Of a stretch of DNA of 23,580 nt, positions 12,521-15,803 are shown piece after piece. Source of the stretch: an uncultured virus (IMG/VR IMGVR_UViG_3300049139_000197). Lineage: Duplodnaviria > Heunggongvirae > Uroviricota > Caudoviricetes. The stretch is from the IMG/VR virus record IMGVR_UViG_3300049139_000197, one strand, 5' to 3'. Within the stretch, counting starts at the first letter, position 1. The number at the start of each line of letters is the position of its first letter. Position numbers and translations under genes: made by a program. The notes under the pieces were generated by a model. That model ran no database searches. It had not been told where the DNA came from and saw only the letters and a list, made by a program, of their open reading frames with translations.

Positions 12521-15157
12521 CTACCTGCGACCTCGGAGTCTTTGGTCGCTGTAGTGCTGTGTGCCCAGGCCCTGCTGTGCCGGGTCGGCGAGCTCGGTCA
12601 ACGCGTGCACGTAGGCGTCCATGCGGTCCGGGGAGTCCATGCCAGGCAGCCAGGTGATGAGCTGTCCTTCGAGGCGCGGGAACTCGCCCACATGGTGGAT
12701 GAGGGACTGCGCGGCCAGCTGGGCGATTGGTTCGGCACGGAGCTTCTTGCCTTGCTTGGCGTGCACGGGGATGATCCGCGGCATGAGGAGGCCCTTGGTT
12801 TCGCCCTCTCGCTCGAGGTCGCGCCAGGCCTGCCGGATGATCTGCGAAGACTGGTCGCCGCCGAAGTTGTCCTCCACCACGAACGCGTCGGCTTGCAGTT
12901 CGATGGCGAGCCGGCAGGCCTCGTGGCCCCACGTATCGGCGCCCATGTTCGCGGACCGGTCTGCCAGCACGTACATCTCGCCGGATGCCGTGCGGCCGGC
13001 TCCGACGATGCCGGTTTCGTCGTGGGAGGCGCCTGCTCCTCCGGCCATGTCGACGGCCACCACGACGCGGGATAGGTCGACCCCGCGGAACGCCATGGGG
13101 GTGATCCGATTGCGGGTGATCCAGGCCCACTGCCAGACGCCTCCCTCGAGGGGGCGGGGCTGCTGTTGGTAGAGCGCCCACCAGACGCGTTCTCCGACTC
13201 CCCTGCGGATGCGCTGGAGATCGTCGACGTTGTACCGCTCCGGCCAGAGCGCTTCGCCTTCCTGCCGCCCGAGGGGGTCGTCCTCCGCCATAGCGATGGC
13301 GGGCAGATCCAGGACGGTCCATTCATCGCCCTCGGTCTCAAGGAGCCGGCCGGACAGGTCGTCGGGGTTCCAGCGAGTGTTGATGACCACGAGGGAGCCG
13401 TTGGGCTCCAGGCGGGTGAGGGCGACGGATTGCCACCAGTCCCAGACTCGGTTGCGCTGCGTCTGGGACTCGGCGTCGTCGGATCCTTTGAAGGGGTCGT
13501 CGACGATCAGGCAGTTGTGGACGAGTAGGCCGTCAGCAAAGAAGTTGCTGTTGCCTTCCACTTGGATGTCATGGACTCGGACGCCTGGCGCGTGTACTCG
13601 GCGAACCAGGGATACGGCGTCACCGTGGACTTGTGGTGCACCATGTGGCAGCCGTAGCAGAGCAGCAGCAGGTTCTCGACACGGTTGTTCGCTGGGTCCT
13701 CGTCGATGTGGTGCACGATCAGGTTGGACTTCTGCGCGGGTGCTCCGTTTCGTGTGTACGTGATCGGCTTGAACGGGGTGGCGCAGACGACGCAGGCATC
13801 CTTGTCCCGCTCGAAGATCAGAGGGCGGGTCTCCCTGAACCACTTGCTGTAGCTGGTGCCGTCCTTGTAGTGGGAGTTGCCCACTCCGAGCATCCTGATC
13901 GAGTGGGCTTTGTCCGCGCAGGGACGGGAGCAGTACACGGTCCGGCTGCTCTTCGGACGAAAGAACAGACCGCACATGGTGCAGGGCTTCTCGGGATGGT
14001 TTCGAGAGGCGGTGATGCACTCTCGCCCGCAGAACCGGTTGGCCGCCTTCTTCGGCATCGGCTCGTCGCAATGCTCGCATCGGCGCGCGTTCTTTATCGC
14101 GTGATGCGCCTGCGAATGCGGCTTGCAGCAGTAGAAGGAGAAATGACCACGGCGCAGTGCCTTGTTGTACTCGTACCGCGGCTTCTTGAATTCGTCGCCG
14201 CACCACAGGCAACGCAACAGAATCTTGACTGCTCGCGCCTGGTTGTAGCAGTCCCGGCATGACGGCCCGCGCCCGTCGCGCCCCTTGTCCTTGTCGCACA
14301 GGATGCAGTGCCGGTTGGTTCGGGAGACCGTGCGCACCAAGCCGGTCCCCGGGCCGTAGAGACGCGGCCGGCCGGTAACCGGATCCAGGGACATAGACGG
14401 GGTGATCTCCGGTAGCCCGTACTCGATTCCCACGAGCGCTGGTGACTTCGATGAGTCCATCGGCAGTAGTCGTCCTCGTTGCCAGAATCCGGCGCCATTC
14501 AGTTCGGCCGGTCGCATGGTTGAAGGAAAGGACTCGCGGCTTGTCGTTCATGGCCACGAGTTCCGATATGTAAATTTTACCGATTTCCGTGGTCACCAGG
14601 GTCTCATCGGGAAAACAGTTCGCCCCTTTTCCTGTGAGGCCACCCCCCACGCCAGCCGTCACCATTCCGCCCTCGTGTCCTGCAATGTCGAAGCGGTTGG
14701 CGGCATGTGAGGCCGGGTTGAGAGCGATGCCTAGGGCTTCGGCATATCCGGTGATGGTGTCTCGGATCCACCGGCCGTGGTCGTCGGCCAGGGTGGCGCT
14801 GTAGGAGGCCAGCATCAGGCGGTGGTCGGGGTTCTTGCGCAGGTACCAGACGGGTGCCCAGCGTGAGGCGCGGCGGCTCTTCCCGTGACGTGGTGGCATG
14901 GTCAGCATGACCTTGACCCGCTCCCCTGCCGCGATCCGCTGGAATGCGCGGTCCACCAGGTCGAGGTGCCGGGCTTGCATCTCCCTGCCGTTGGTGAGGA
15001 CGGCGGCGAGAGAGCCTGGAGACCGGTCCATGGCGATCTCGCGCTCCACGGCCAGAAGCTGGGACCGCAAGTCCGGGGAGGCCTGACGGGCTATCTCTAG
15101 ACGCTGCTCGTCGGGCAGTGTCCGGTAGGCCTGGAGGAGGTCACTGTTCGCCGTCAC
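12521..15157 (-). CDS. terL: Terminase large subunit precursor (878 aa; 510 aa after intein removal)
   Basis: Walker A region MPPRHGKS, Walker B LIVDDP, coupling motif NTRW, ALYQQQP, nuclease motifs VVAVD and PDRMDA. Confidence 0.95.
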   Translation of the reverse strand: MTANSDLLQAYRTLPDEQRLEIARQASPDLRSQLLAVEREIAMDRSPGSLAAVLTNGREMQARHLDLVDRAFQRIAAGERVKVMLTMPPRHGKSRRASRWAPVWYLRKNPDHRLMLASYSATLADDHGRWIRDTITGYAEALGIALNPASHAANRFDIAGHEGGMVTAGVGGGLTGKGANCFPDETLVTTEIGKIYISELVAMNDKPRVLSFNHATGRTEWRRILATRTTTADGLIEVTSARGNRVRATGDHPVYVPGSGYRPAASLRPGDRLGAHGLPNQPALHPVRQGQGARRARAVMPGLLQPGASSQDSVALPVVRRRIQEAAVRVQQGTAPWSFLLLLLQAAFAGASRDKERAPMRALRRADAEEGGQPVLRARVHHRLSKPSREALHHVRSVLSSEEQPDRVLLPSLRGQSPLDQDARSGQLPLQGRHQLQQVVQGDPPSDLRAGQGCLRRLRHPVQADHVHTKRSTRAEVQPDRAPHRRGPSEQPCREPAAALLRLPHGAPQVHGDAVSLVRRVHAPGVRVHDIQVEGNSNFFADGLLVHNCLIVDDPFKGSDDAESQTQRNRVWDWWQSVALTRLEPNGSLVVINTRWNPDDLSGRLLETEGDEWTVLDLPAIAMAEDDPLGRQEGEALWPERYNVDDLQRIRRGVGERVWWALYQQQPRPLEGGVWQWAWITRNRITPMAFRGVDLSRVVVAVDMAGGAGASHDETGIVGAGRTASGEMYVLADRSANMGADTWGHEACRLAIELQADAFVVEDNFGGDQSSQIIRQAWRDLEREGETKGLLMPRIIPVHAKQGKKLRAEPIAQLAAQSLIHHVGEFPRLEGQLITWLPGMDSPDRMDAYVHALTELADPAQQGLGTQHYSDQRLRGRR
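13507..14337 (-). CDS. Zinc-finger HNH homing endonuclease nested in the intein in the +1 frame
   Basis: Repeated CxxC/FCxxxC fingers (CILC, CRDC, CLWC, CEHC..FCGREC, CTMC..YCSRPC), GNSHYKDG, then RDKDACVVC..LIVHHIDEDPANNRVENLLLLCYGCHMVHH. The frame is open from 14517; the likely start is GTG 14337 or TTG 14340 after GGGGA (start uncertain). Confidence 0.88.
   Translation of the reverse strand: MRTVSRTNRHCILCDKDKGRDGRGPSCRDCYNQARAVKILLRCLWCGDEFKKPRYEYNKALRRGHFSFYCCKPHSQAHHAIKNARRCEHCDEPMPKKAANRFCGRECITASRNHPEKPCTMCGLFFRPKSSRTVYCSRPCADKAHSIRMLGVGNSHYKDGTSYSKWFRETRPLIFERDKDACVVCATPFKPITYTRNGAPAQKSNLIVHHIDEDPANNRVENLLLLCYGCHMVHHKSTVTPYPWFAEYTRQASESMTSKWKATATSLLTAYSSTTA
13514..14617 (-). mobile_element. 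Class 1 intein in TerL (368 aa, residues 181-548)
   Basis: Starts CFPDETLV (Cys1), block B ATGDHPVY (TxxH), block F VHDIQVEGNSNFFADG, ends LLVHN with Cys+1. Removal restores GLTGKGAN|CLIVDDP. Confidence 0.95.
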
Positions 15158-15668
15158 TGGCGTCCTGGTCGTCGCCTTCCATGAGGGAGGGTGCGGTACC
15201 GAGTCCGATGAGCGCTTCGAGTTCGGCGGTGGTGGCCTGGCTCATCTGGAGGGGGCCGCCGCCGGCGCCGGTGACTTCGGCCTTGGCGGGCATGTCGAGG
15301 CCGTTGAGTTTCGCTCGGCGGTCCATAAGGCGGAGGACGGTGTCGACGGCCCGCATGTCCAGAGCGTGGTCGACGACCTCGCCGTCCTTGTTGAAGACCG
15401 GGGAGGGCTGTGTGGCGCGTGGCCATGCGGCCTCGAGGAGGGCGTCGAGGCGTTCGTTCTCCTGCTGCCGGTAGATGCCGACTTCGGCGGCTTCCTCTTG
15501 GCGGTGTGCTTCGAGGGCGCGGTTGAGGTCGCGGCGTGCGGCGTTGGGGCTGCTGTAGCCGAGGGCCTCGACGCGTTCGTCGTCGTATCGGACGCCTTCG
15601 CGGCGCAGCGCAAGGAGTTTGGTGCGTCGGACGGTGACTTCGTCCAGCTTGAGTTTCGACCAGGCCAT
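15141..15668 (-). CDS. terS: Terminase small subunit, 175 aa
   Basis: ATG at 15668 follows GGGAG. HTH-like LALRREGVRY..ALGYSSPNAA, ERLDALL and RLMDRRAKLNGLDMP; overlaps the terL start. Confidence 0.82.
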   Translation of the reverse strand: MAWSKLKLDEVTVRRTKLLALRREGVRYDDERVEALGYSSPNAARRDLNRALEAHRQEEAAEVGIYRQQENERLDALLEAAWPRATQPSPVFNKDGEVVDHALDMRAVDTVLRLMDRRAKLNGLDMPAKAEVTGAGGGPLQMSQATTAELEALIGLGTAPSLMEGDDQDASDGEQ

Positions 15669-15706
15669 GGCGGTGGGGCTCCCGCTCGATCGTGTGTGTG
15701 GTTGTC

Positions 15707-15756
15707 GGCCCCGCGCCTTGGTCGAATGATCGCCGATTGGGACGGTTGTGTTCCCC
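15707..15756 (-). promoter_or_regulatory. Putative late promoter, copy 1 (terS-terL)
   Basis: GGGGAACA-N17-GATCAT-N7-AGGCGCGGGGCC. Confidence 0.7.
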
Positions 15757-15765
15757 CGGGTATGG

Positions 15766-15803
15766 CACGGACCCGCCACCGGGGGGAGGGTGGCGGGTCC
15801 GTG
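15766..15803 (-). terminator. 15-bp perfect hairpin separating transfer and virion modules
   Basis: CACGGACCCGCCACC (15766-15780) / GGTGGCGGGTCCGTG (15789-15803), just upstream of late promoter copy 1. Confidence 0.65.

What the first reader, a model, noticed from the sequence alone, without database searches (positions are those of the whole stretch)
13507..14617. Terminase intein carries its HNH homing endonuclease in a different reading frame
Seen: the intein (14617-13514) has intact splicing motifs, but its central ~235 in-frame codons read as Arg/Leu/Gln/Pro-rich filler. The same DNA read in the +1 frame gives a coherent multi-zinc-finger HNH nuclease, and both frames are stop-free. Known: canonical inteins carry a LAGLIDADG or HNH domain in frame. 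Inference: the nuclease is made as a separate protein, decoupled from splicing, while the intein loops out an overprinted disordered linker. I recall alternate-frame intein endonucleases being reported recently in actinobacteriophages but cannot verify this, so it may be rare rather than wholly new. Caveat: G/C bias at HNH third positions makes the terminase frame inherently stop-poor.
Basis: partly seen in the sequence, partly recalled or inferred. Interest (0 to 1): 0.88.

Follow-up and report, generated by a model that had tools for sequence, protein, structure and literature searches.

The report
Terminase intein with out-of-frame HNH gene
A phage DNA-packaging gene carries a self-splicing protein insert (intein) whose homing nuclease is a separate gene written one base out of step in the same DNA; this is real and kept by selection, but the layout was already reported for Brucella phages and, in 2025, for actinobacteriophages.

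Summary
Observation confirmed. On the minus strand, TerL (15157-12521, 878 aa) holds a 368-codon class-1 intein (14617-13514) just before Walker B. A +1-frame ORF (14460-13507, 317 codons) encodes a multi-zinc-ribbon HNH nuclease.

It is not an error. The HNH is +1 to TerL in all 14 other contigs whose DNA I checked: Streptomyces-type viral contigs, a Streptomyces prophage, Gordonia phage Clown, Brucella phage Tb, Synechococcus phage S-EIVl and Ralstonia phage RS-CA1.

Among 8 close relatives the most variable codon position switches from the TerL wobble to the HNH wobble at intein nt ~150-960. Indels there are 3 and 6 nt. Frame 0 has no stops where 2-11 are expected.

AlphaFold folds the +1 protein (HNH fold) and only the two ends of the frame-0 intein; the middle 248 residues are unstructured.

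A conserved ATG with an AGGA motif upstream suggests internal initiation. Intein-free alleles and conflicting intein and extein trees suggest homing.

The layout is in print: brucellaphages (Virol J 2015), and a 2025 preprint for a different nuclease. This scan also noted it in at least 30 other genomes. Verdict: new member of a known kind.

The parts
12521..15157 (-). TerL precursor ORF (878 aa, GTG start), Terminase_6 type, interrupted by the intein
14618..15157 (-). N-extein (180 codons; Walker A PPRHGKS), ending in GKGAN
13514..14617 (-). Class-1 intein, 368 codons: Cys1, block B T69..H72, C-terminal His-Asn, then Cys+1
   Evidence: invariant columns
14336..14617 (-). N-terminal splicing subdomain (intein residues 1-94), pLDDT 72-91
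   Evidence: Foldseek matches to mini-inteins at prob 0.99
13592..14335 (-). Frame-0 'linker' (intein residues 95-342), stop-free, pLDDT 24-34, poorly conserved in frame 0
13514..13591 (-). C-terminal splicing subdomain confidently modelled (residues 343-368, blocks F/G). Conserved columns start at about residue 324.
13507..14460 (-). HNH endonuclease ORF in the +1 frame: 317 codons plus a TGA stop that lies in C-extein codons 2-3
14458..14460 (-). Proposed HNH start codon ATG (intein nt 157), kept by a rare xAT codon in the TerL frame in 8 of 8 relatives
14473..14477 (-). SD-like GAGGA ((G/A)AGGA in 8 of 8), 12 nt upstream of the ATG, made by a rare AGG Arg codon of the TerL frame
13891..14313 (-). 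Zinc-ribbon / Cys-pair repeats of the HNH protein (ORF residues ~50-190; the whole ORF holds 20 Cys)
13630..13794 (-). HNH catalytic core (ORF residues 223-277; invariant H250, H251, N259, H272)
12521..13513 (-). C-extein starting CLIVDDPFK (Walker B), with the nuclease domain

Best explanation
This is a mobile class-1 intein inserted immediately before the Walker-B motif of a phage large terminase. Its homing-endonuclease slot holds a complete 317-codon gene for a zinc-ribbon HNH nuclease, read one base out of step (+1) with TerL.

Shown:
- Both frames are open.
- The +1 frame is under purifying selection from about intein nt 150 to 960.
- Frame 0 in that stretch is constrained only against stop codons and non-triplet indels.
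- The two ends of the HNH ORF overlap the splicing blocks and carry double constraint.

Inferred:
- Ribosomes reading TerL make a precursor in which about 250 unstructured residues loop out. The N-terminal (~94 aa) and C-terminal (~26-45 aa) splicing halves then pair, excise the intein and join GKGAN to CLIVDDPFK.
- A minority of ribosomes start inside the same mRNA at ATG 14460, behind a GAGGA motif, and make the free HNH protein.
- In a mixed infection that nuclease cuts intein-less terL alleles at the empty site, and repair copies in the intein and nuclease gene together (homing).
For: Architecture. The HNH frame is +1 to TerL in 10 of 10 loci that carry both. It is +1 in 6 of 6 intein-bearing loci of a second set, 4 of which are the same contigs as before, and in Ralstonia phage RS-CA1 by coordinates. 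That makes 14 distinct other contigs and none in frame. A contig with a 100% identical HNH, intein and TerL flanks exists (L004/L028), and a product 100% identical to the query, called at 295 aa, is recorded on 4 contigs.

Selection. In 8 relatives the mean pairwise difference by TerL codon position is 0.04/0.05/0.43 in the N-extein. In intein nt 300-959 it is 0.38/0.17/0.14; TerL position 1 is HNH position 3. The only indels are 6 and 3 nt. Identity to the window is 75-85% in the +1 frame against 51-61% in frame 0.

Frame 0 has 0 stops in 12 of 12 loci where 2.0-10.8 are expected. P(0) is 5e-5 or less in the lower-GC Tb and S-EIVl.

Folds. The +1 protein has mean pLDDT 78.8, and residues 50-315 are folded. 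Residues 199-300 match HNH nucleases: EcoKMcrA Z 8.0, IscB HNH 7.9, ScoMcrA 7.7, Cap5 7.2. The frame-0 intein folds only at residues 1-94 and 343-368, and that model matches mini-inteins.

Start. ATG at intein nt 157 is present in 8 of 8. AGG (3.7% of Arg codons in the exteins) gives (G/A)AGGA in 8 of 8. The TerL wobble variability falls from 0.36-0.48 to 0.07 just downstream. In Tb the +1 frame opens only at nt 280, and the annotated GTG at nt 301 follows AAGGAG. S-EIVl has a GTG at nt 262 behind AGGAG.

Mobility. Intein-less alleles L030 and L040 read exactly GKGANCLIVDDPF. Extein and HNH identities are uncorrelated (Spearman 0.12). AU tests reject the extein clade on intein DNA (p 0.0015) and the intein clade on extein DNA (p 0.0013).

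Decay stages. L005 has a TGA at HNH codon 64. L020 is a 149-aa mini-intein at the same site that still reads CHMVHHKS in +1.
Against: - No expression, splicing or cleavage data exist. Translation of the +1 ORF is inferred from sequence conservation only.
- The SD-like motif sits 12 nt from the ATG, which is longer than usual, and no promoter-like site was found.
- The first 45 residues of the +1 product are modelled with pLDDT below 50, so the true start could lie further downstream (a second conserved ATG is at intein nt 223).
- In the extein tree the 8 intein-bearing alleles plus L030 and L040 form one clade (97% SH-aLRT; quick tree only). Much of the distribution is therefore vertical, and the two empty alleles could be precise losses rather than targets.
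- The AU groups were chosen after I had seen the identity matrices, so those tests are post hoc.
- The 8 relatives are not independent samples.
- P(frame 0 open) is only 0.06 and 0.10 for L008 and L038 taken singly.
Confidence: 0.8

Rival explanations
1. Sequencing or assembly artefact: two compensating indels displaced an in-frame HNH domain.
For: None found.
Against: The same +1 offset occurs in 14 other contigs from unrelated projects and hosts. A contig 100% identical over the HNH, intein and TerL flanks exists. The same product is recorded on 4 contigs. The substitution-phase switch occurs over hundreds of bases. Brucellaphage records annotate the same layout.
Confidence: 0.01
2. The +1 ORF is a silent relic. 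The intein still splices, but the HNH gene is no longer translated or active in this phage and merely has not yet decayed.
For: Relatives show decay: L005 has a nonsense codon and L020 has lost the nuclease. Intein presence is largely clade-wide. There are no expression data.
Against: 7 of 8 close relatives keep an intact 317-320-codon ORF while its wobble positions differ by 0.3-0.5. The catalytic H, N and Cys columns are invariant over 41 sequences. The start codon and SD-like motif are kept by rare TerL codons in 8 of 8. Intein and extein histories conflict.
Confidence: 0.1
3. The nuclease is made not by internal initiation but by a +1 ribosomal frameshift from the TerL frame. That would give an N-extein-IntN-HNH fusion that ends at the stop just past the splice junction.
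For: In the window the +1 frame is open from intein nt 70. Four of the 150 best library representatives (P0142, P0168, P0095, P0140) are called as ORFs reading TerL N-extein and IntN straight into the HNH.
Against: In Tb the +1 frame is closed until nt 280, and a GTG behind AAGGAG follows at nt 301. The ATG and AGGA are conserved in 8 of 8. I did not search for a slippery site. The four fused ORFs end at the +1 stop, which would leave the C-extein out of frame, and P0140 also reads out of frame across its HNH core (read by eye). They therefore look like broken copies or assembly indels, but their DNA could not be fetched.
Confidence: 0.06
4. The embedded HNH has been domesticated as a terminase-associated packaging HNH rather than serving as a homing enzyme.
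For: The brucellaphage authors raise a functional link between the overlapping HNH and TerL (PMC4422536). HNH proteins that aid terminases are known (Kala et al. 2014, as cited in that paper; I did not read it).
Against: 72 of 79 related terL loci have no insert at the site, including L030 at 89% C-extein identity, so the nuclease is dispensable for packaging in this lineage. L005 carries a nonsense codon. Free-standing relatives sit next to other genes, for example DNA polymerase B in HCTV-16.
Confidence: 0.03

Closest known systems
[quoted passage not shown]
   Same: Homologous HNH: 36% identity over ~190 aa, E 1e-20. Same insertion site before hhhhDD Walker B (GNRAD|CVIIDD). Same +1 offset. 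Frame 0 is open against an expectation of 8.6 stops.
   Different: Shorter nuclease (228 aa annotated) with fewer zinc ribbons. Its ORF starts after the N-terminal splicing domain (GTG at intein nt 301) and stops 10 nt before the junction. The window's ORF starts inside IntN (nt 157) and stops in the extein. Hosts are in different phyla.
[quoted passage not shown]
   Same: A same-strand, out-of-frame nuclease gene sits in the HEN slot of a contiguous intein, often in terL. The in-frame middle has no recognisable structure. The authors propose an origin by invasion of a free-standing HEG.
   Different: Their nuclease is endonuclease VII-like (IPR004211) in 'frame 3'. Here it is HNH_3/HNH in frame 2 (+1), with no Endonuclease_7 Pfam hit at E up to 5 and T4 endonuclease VII at only Z 3.2. 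In their paper HNH HENs are listed only as in-frame.
Gordonia phage Clown terminase gp5 intein (MT771343)
   Same: The closest cultured-phage relative: HNH 40% identical over 229-239 aa. Same site, +1 frame, and the same C-terminal tail ...SMTSRW..TSL..SSTTA.
   Different: 385-aa intein. The +1 ORF runs 23 nt past the junction. Annotated only as 'terminase'.
ShiLan-type hidden HNH insertions in phage DNA methylases (PMC11855218)
   Same: An out-of-frame zinc-finger HNH gene sits inside a host ORF that stays open. Its stop codon is at the insertion's end, and homing-like distribution is reported.
   Different: ShiLan has no detectable splicing domain, so the host protein keeps the loop. Here intact intein blocks flank the nuclease gene.
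Canonical TerL inteins with an in-frame LAGLIDADG HEN
   Same: Inteins in the TerL ATPase domain at functional motifs (P-loop, Walker B, C-motif). L089 carries one at the C-motif of a related TerL.
   Different: The HEN is a domain of the intein polypeptide, in one reading frame.

Membership tests
Class-1 intein (HINT splicing domain) | Nucleophile at position 1, block B T-x-x-H, C-terminal His-Asn, and a nucleophile at +1 of the C-extein | tested here: met
   C1, T69, H72, H367, N368 are invariant in 8 sequences. Cys+1 in CLIVDD.
Class-1 intein (HINT splicing domain) | Sequence-profile match to an intein splicing domain | tested here: inconclusive
   Pfam Intein_splicing E 1.4e-8 at 35.1 bits, just under the 35.8-bit cut-off.
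Class-1 intein (HINT splicing domain) | HINT fold formed by the N- and C-terminal parts | tested here: met
   In the AF2 model residues 1-94 and 343-368 are confident. Foldseek matches DnaX, DnaB, NrdJ-1 and RecA mini-inteins at prob 0.97-0.99; E is 8e-4 for the best hit and 2e-3 to 9e-3 for the rest of the top ten.
Class-1 intein (HINT splicing domain) | Protein splicing activity | not testable with these tools
   Indirect only: terL is essential, and natural intein-less alleles L030 and L040 equal the predicted ligated sequence.
HNH (beta-beta-alpha-Me) endonuclease | Profile match above the curated cut-off | tested here: met
   HNH_3 at 27.0 bits against 24.8. Tb and S-EIVl homologues pass PF01844 (21.9 and 24.9 bits against 21.4).
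HNH (beta-beta-alpha-Me) endonuclease | Catalytic His, Asn and His, and Cys pairs for the structural zinc | tested here: met
   H250, H251, N259, H272, C223 and C226 are invariant; C268, C271, N263, H275 and H276 are kept in at least 90% of 41 sequences.
HNH (beta-beta-alpha-Me) endonuclease | HNH fold | tested here: met
   VIA-align: EcoKMcrA Z 8.0 (87 aa, 3.5 A), IscB HNH 7.9, ScoMcrA 7.7, Cap5 7.2, Gme HNH 5.8. The Z values are middling; the tool warns that Z under 8 can mean only a common arrangement. Whole-model Foldseek gave no hit at E of 0.001 or better.
HNH (beta-beta-alpha-Me) endonuclease | Site-specific DNA cleavage | not testable with these tools
Brucellaphage-type TerL intein with out-of-frame HNH | Homologous HNH ORF nested in the intein, on the same strand, +1 to TerL, at the Walker-B site | tested here: met
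[quoted passage not shown] | The nuclease belongs to the endonuclease VII family (IPR004211) and lies in frame 3 | tested here: not met
   No PF02945 match listed at E up to 5 for 4 family members, while HNH_3 or HNH pass. T4 endonuclease VII reaches Z 3.2 against 8.0 for McrA. The frame is +1. Both nucleases belong to the same broad His-Me superfamily (recalled).
Active homing element | Sporadic presence among close host-gene alleles, and an intein history that differs from the extein history | tested here: inconclusive
   Two empty alleles are nested in the intein-bearing clade, and at least 3 label changes are needed, but the label is clustered. AU tests give p 0.0015 and 0.0013, with groups chosen post hoc.

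The most novel reading that the evidence does not exclude
The out-of-frame layout is not a short-lived intermediate on the way to an in-frame HEN, as the 2025 preprint suggests it may be. It is an old, stable end state: one intein-plus-HNH composite that has kept the same +1 offset and the same Walker-B site while spreading through phages of Actinomycetota, Pseudomonadota and Cyanobacteria.

In the Streptomyces/Gordonia branch the nuclease gene has grown over both splicing halves. Its start codon and SD lie inside block-B DNA. Its last catalytic helix and two C-terminal helices are encoded by the same bases as the start of IntC and blocks F/G. Its stop codon is borrowed from the extein. Nuclease and splicing domain are therefore physically interlocked and must co-evolve.
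Probability: 0.5. Interest if true: 0.55.

Novelty: new member of a known kind. Interest (0 to 1): 0.4.

Why it matters
Gene callers and intein surveys usually treat such inteins as 'decaying' or as mini-inteins and miss the nuclease gene. Clown's record annotates only 'terminase'.

This window adds a clean, well-supported Streptomyces-type example. Together with its relatives it shows three things:
- The HNH version of the layout spans at least five phage lineages in three bacterial phyla, always with the same +1 offset.
- Selection acts on three different things along one 1.1-kb stretch: the TerL frame, the HNH frame, and mere openness of frame 0.
- All stages of the homing cycle can be seen among relatives: empty site, intact element, nonsense-hit nuclease and mini-intein.

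It gives a practical test bed for two questions: how an internal out-of-frame gene is translated from inside an essential mRNA, and how long an unstructured linker a splicing domain tolerates. It does not reveal a new kind of element.

Tried and rejected
- The window's own assembly is not held. The nearest record, G001 (6.7 kb), has no match to the region, so no whole-genome context was available.
- blastn against phages found only short, ~72-77% matches. Protein-level searches were needed.
- Rfam at E up to 1 found nothing in 13200-14900, so there is no support for a group I or II intron despite the 'intron-encoded' note in the Tb record.
- The sigma-70 scan found no promoter. It found one terminator-like hairpin at 13984-13970, fewer than the 1.5 expected by chance.
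- Foldseek of the whole HNH model gave no hit at E of 0.001 or better, probably because the model is multi-domain. VIA-align on representatives was used instead.
- A search for longer fused forms found only 2 proteins (480 and 490 aa). They carry extra zinc-ribbon repeats, not TerL. The tool warns this is weak evidence.
- Among the 150 best of 171 representatives at E of 1e-30 or better, none is a full-length TerL with the HNH in frame. The 4,309 proteins at E of 1e-10 or better were not all inspected.
- My regular expression put the start of the RS-CA1 intein in the wrong place. The TerL translation shows it begins at CFVGATLIDTDAG, so the permutation P for L026 should be ignored; its frame and C-terminal junction stand.
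- The literature search 'intein' + 'different reading frame' + 'HNH' returned 0 papers.
- The careful extein tree did not finish, so the quick tree was used.
- A look-up of this scan's earlier findings by sequence found nothing.
Full report
**What is there**

The window is a high-GC (66-74%) phage or prophage structural module read on the minus strand.
- PHROGs assigns a major head protein (8819-7773), a head decoration protein (9620-8838) and a portal (12435-10540). Upstream of terL it assigns a phrog_645 protein (15779-15141) and an FtsK/SpoIIIE-like protein (19014-16828).
- GC falls to 0.61-0.64 across 13501-15000.
- TerL is the 878-aa ORF 15157-12521, with Pfam Terminase_6N, Terminase_6C and Intein_splicing.
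- The intein runs from Cys181 (14617) to Asn548 (13514), 368 codons, between GKGAN and CLIVDDPFK. It therefore sits directly before the Walker-B hhhhDD motif.
- The +1 frame is open from 14547 to the TGA at 13509-13507. It encodes a protein with 20 Cys in paired motifs and an HNH core. Pfam HNH_3 scores 27.0 bits against a 24.8 cut-off.

**Is it an artefact?**

No.
- tblastn with separate probes for exteins, splicing blocks and HNH put the HNH +1 to TerL in 10 of 10 loci that hold both. These are Gordonia phage Clown, Brucella phage Tb, Synechococcus phage S-EIVl, six IMG/VR contigs (one 100% identical to the window) and a Streptomyces sp. genome contig. A cut contig (L010) shows the same offset at its C-terminal end.
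- Two further viral contigs (L034, L038) and Ralstonia phage RS-CA1 agree.
- No in-frame version was seen. Of 42 near-length database homologues, all are called as separate ORFs of 156-413 aa. The 2 longer ones carry extra zinc ribbons.
- Among the best 150 of 171 library representatives at E of 1e-30 or better, none is a full-length TerL.

**Which frame is selected?**

I aligned the window with five, then seven, relatives that differ by 10-20% in the exteins.
- In the exteins and the first ~150 nt of the intein, variation is concentrated at TerL codon position 3 (0.33-0.48 mean pairwise difference).
- From about nt 150 to 960 it is concentrated at TerL position 1, which is HNH position 3 (0.29-0.51).
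- The only indels are 6 and 3 nt.
- Protein identity to the window is 75-85% in the +1 frame and 51-61% in frame 0 over the same DNA.

Frame 0 is nevertheless kept open. With the HNH protein fixed and synonymous codons permuted, 2.0-10.8 stops are expected, and 0 are observed in 12 of 12 loci.
- P(0) is 0.004-0.005 for the window, 5e-5 or less for Tb (GC 0.57) and below 5e-5 for S-EIVl (GC 0.44).
- P(0) is only 0.06 and 0.10 for L008 and L038 taken singly.
- The value for RS-CA1 should be ignored because I set its N boundary wrongly.

**Folds**

- AlphaFold with 41 homologues folds the +1 product (mean pLDDT 78.8). Residues 50-315 are confident and residues 1-45 are not.
- Residues 199-300 align to HNH nucleases: EcoKMcrA Z 8.0, IscB HNH 7.9, ScoMcrA 7.7, Cap5 7.2. 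T4 endonuclease VII and I-HmuI reach only 3.2. The tool itself calls these Z values middling. They agree with Pfam and with the invariant H250, H251, N259, H272 and Cys pairs.
- The frame-0 intein model is confident only at residues 1-94 and 343-368. Residues 95-342 score pLDDT 24-34. That model matches mini-inteins at prob 0.97-0.99.

**How the nuclease is probably made (inferred)**

- ATG 14460 (intein nt 157) is present in 8 of 8. It is held by a TerL codon ending in T (GAT or AAT, 8% and 6% usage in the exteins).
- It is preceded at 12 nt by (G/A)AGGA, made from an AGG Arg codon (3.7% of Arg codons) in 8 of 8.
- The TerL wobble variability drops from 0.36-0.48 to 0.07 just after it.
- In Tb the +1 frame is closed until nt 280, and the annotated GTG at nt 301 follows AAGGAG. 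S-EIVl has a GTG at nt 262 behind AGGAG.

Internal initiation on the terL message is therefore the simplest reading.

**Double coding at the ends**

- The HNH ORF overlaps block B at its 5' end.
- At its 3' end it overlaps the start of IntC and blocks F/G. There all three codon positions are nearly invariant (0.04/0.00/0.03 at nt 1035-1079, against an extein wobble of 0.23-0.28).
- The +1 product is modelled there as two helices with pLDDT above 90.
- The stop is TGA at +5 (from CTG ATC) or TAG at +8 (from CTC ATA G) inside the C-extein.
- This tail is shared with Clown and L009, but not with Tb, S-EIVl or RS-CA1.

**Mobility and decay**

- Of 79 evaluable related terL loci, 6 carry this element and 72 carry nothing at the site. 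One (L089) carries a canonical in-frame LAGLIDADG intein at the C-motif instead.
- L030 (89% C-extein identity) and L040 are empty but read GKGANCLIVDDPF, exactly the predicted ligation product.
- In a quick extein tree the 8 bearers plus these 2 form one clade (97% SH-aLRT). At least 3 gains or losses are needed, and the label is clustered (0 of 500 shuffles as low).
- Within the clade, extein and HNH identities are uncorrelated (Spearman 0.12, p 0.54).
- AU tests reject the extein grouping on intein DNA (p 0.0015) and the intein grouping on extein DNA (p 0.0013). The groups were chosen after I saw the matrices.
- L005 has a TGA at HNH codon 64 with frame 0 intact.
- L020, from a Competibacteraceae MAG, is a 149-aa mini-intein at the same site. 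Its +1 frame still reads CHMVHHKS..TPFPW: 12 of 18 residues match the window in +1, against 7 of 18 in frame 0. This looks like a relic of a deleted nuclease gene.
- Free-standing relatives exist, for example HCTV-16 gp88 beside DNA polymerase B.

**What is known**

[quoted passage not shown] NC_019446 annotates both genes.
- Gosselin, Arsenault and Gogarten (bioRxiv 10.1101/2025.01.02.630785; abstract, passages and section 15 read; supplements closed) describe out-of-frame HENs in actinophage inteins. Theirs is an endonuclease VII-like enzyme in frame 3, and they list HNH only as in-frame. They name Clown's intein only as the longest class-1 intein.
- PMC11855218 (passages) describes hidden out-of-frame HNH genes in methylases that lack splicing domains.
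- Kelley et al. (PMC5050341, passages) map TerL intein sites to the P-loop, Walker B and C-motif.
- PMC12613952 was seen only as a listing and abstract.
- My four literature searches turned up no paper that treats the HNH version as one cross-phylum family. The library lacks most subscription journals.
- This scan has noted the same kind of element in at least 30 other genomes. Those notes agree with what I tested here.

**Verdict**

The element is a new, well-documented member of a known kind. The modestly new points are the constant +1 offset across phyla, the conserved internal start, and the double-coded ends.

Noticed in passing
L089:1500-2620 (IMG/VR contig), TerL frame: A related TerL has no insert at the Walker-B site. 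It carries a canonical in-frame LAGLIDADG intein (LLGYLLGDG ... FGYAEADGG) at the C-motif, VLIN|C...VVHN|TRWHE. The window's TerL is uninterrupted at that second site.
   Followed up: partly
L005:2191-3291: A close relative (HNH 85-87% identical to the window) has a TGA at HNH codon 64, in the first zinc knuckle, where the window has CGC. The TerL frame stays open. This may be a freshly inactivated nuclease or a read-through case.
   Followed up: partly
L020:2191-2637 (Competibacteraceae MAG contig): A 149-aa mini-intein at the same TerL site. Its +1 frame still spells the last HNH motif, CHMVHHKS..TPFPW, which suggests the nuclease gene was deleted in multiples of three.
   Followed up: partly
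proteins P0142, P0168, P0095, P0140 (library representatives): Four predicted ORFs read TerL N-extein and IntN straight into the HNH frame and end at the HNH stop. P0140 also reads out of frame across its HNH core. They look like frameshifted (broken) copies or assembly indels. P0142 additionally starts inside a LAGLIDADG intein, so that terL has two inteins. Their DNA could not be fetched.
   Followed up: partly
window 13504-13513 and the junctions of L006, L008, L034, L030, L040: The C-extein codons after Cys+1 are either CTG ATC (giving the +1 stop TGA) or CTC ATA G (giving TAG). The Ile codon ATA, unusual in a high-GC genome, also occurs in the two intein-less alleles.
   Followed up: no
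window 14336-14460 (HNH ORF residues 1-45): This stretch shows strong extra constraint on TerL wobble positions (0.07 at intein nt 180-224). Yet the +1 product is modelled there with pLDDT below 50. What is being conserved (a peptide, the initiation region or RNA structure) is unexplained.
   Followed up: no
window 15141-15779 (-): The ORF just upstream of terL, overlapping its start by 17 nt, matches phrog_645, which is labelled 'Rnase E' (E 1e-25). By position it could be the small terminase subunit. Not examined.
   Followed up: no
L027:3004-3588 (Haloarcula virus HCTV-16) and other rows: Distant relatives of this HNH (23-30% identity) are free-standing genes in haloarchaeal, Xanthomonas, Acinetobacter and Escherichia phages, one abutting DNA polymerase B. 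This fits an origin from free-standing homing endonuclease genes.
   Followed up: partly
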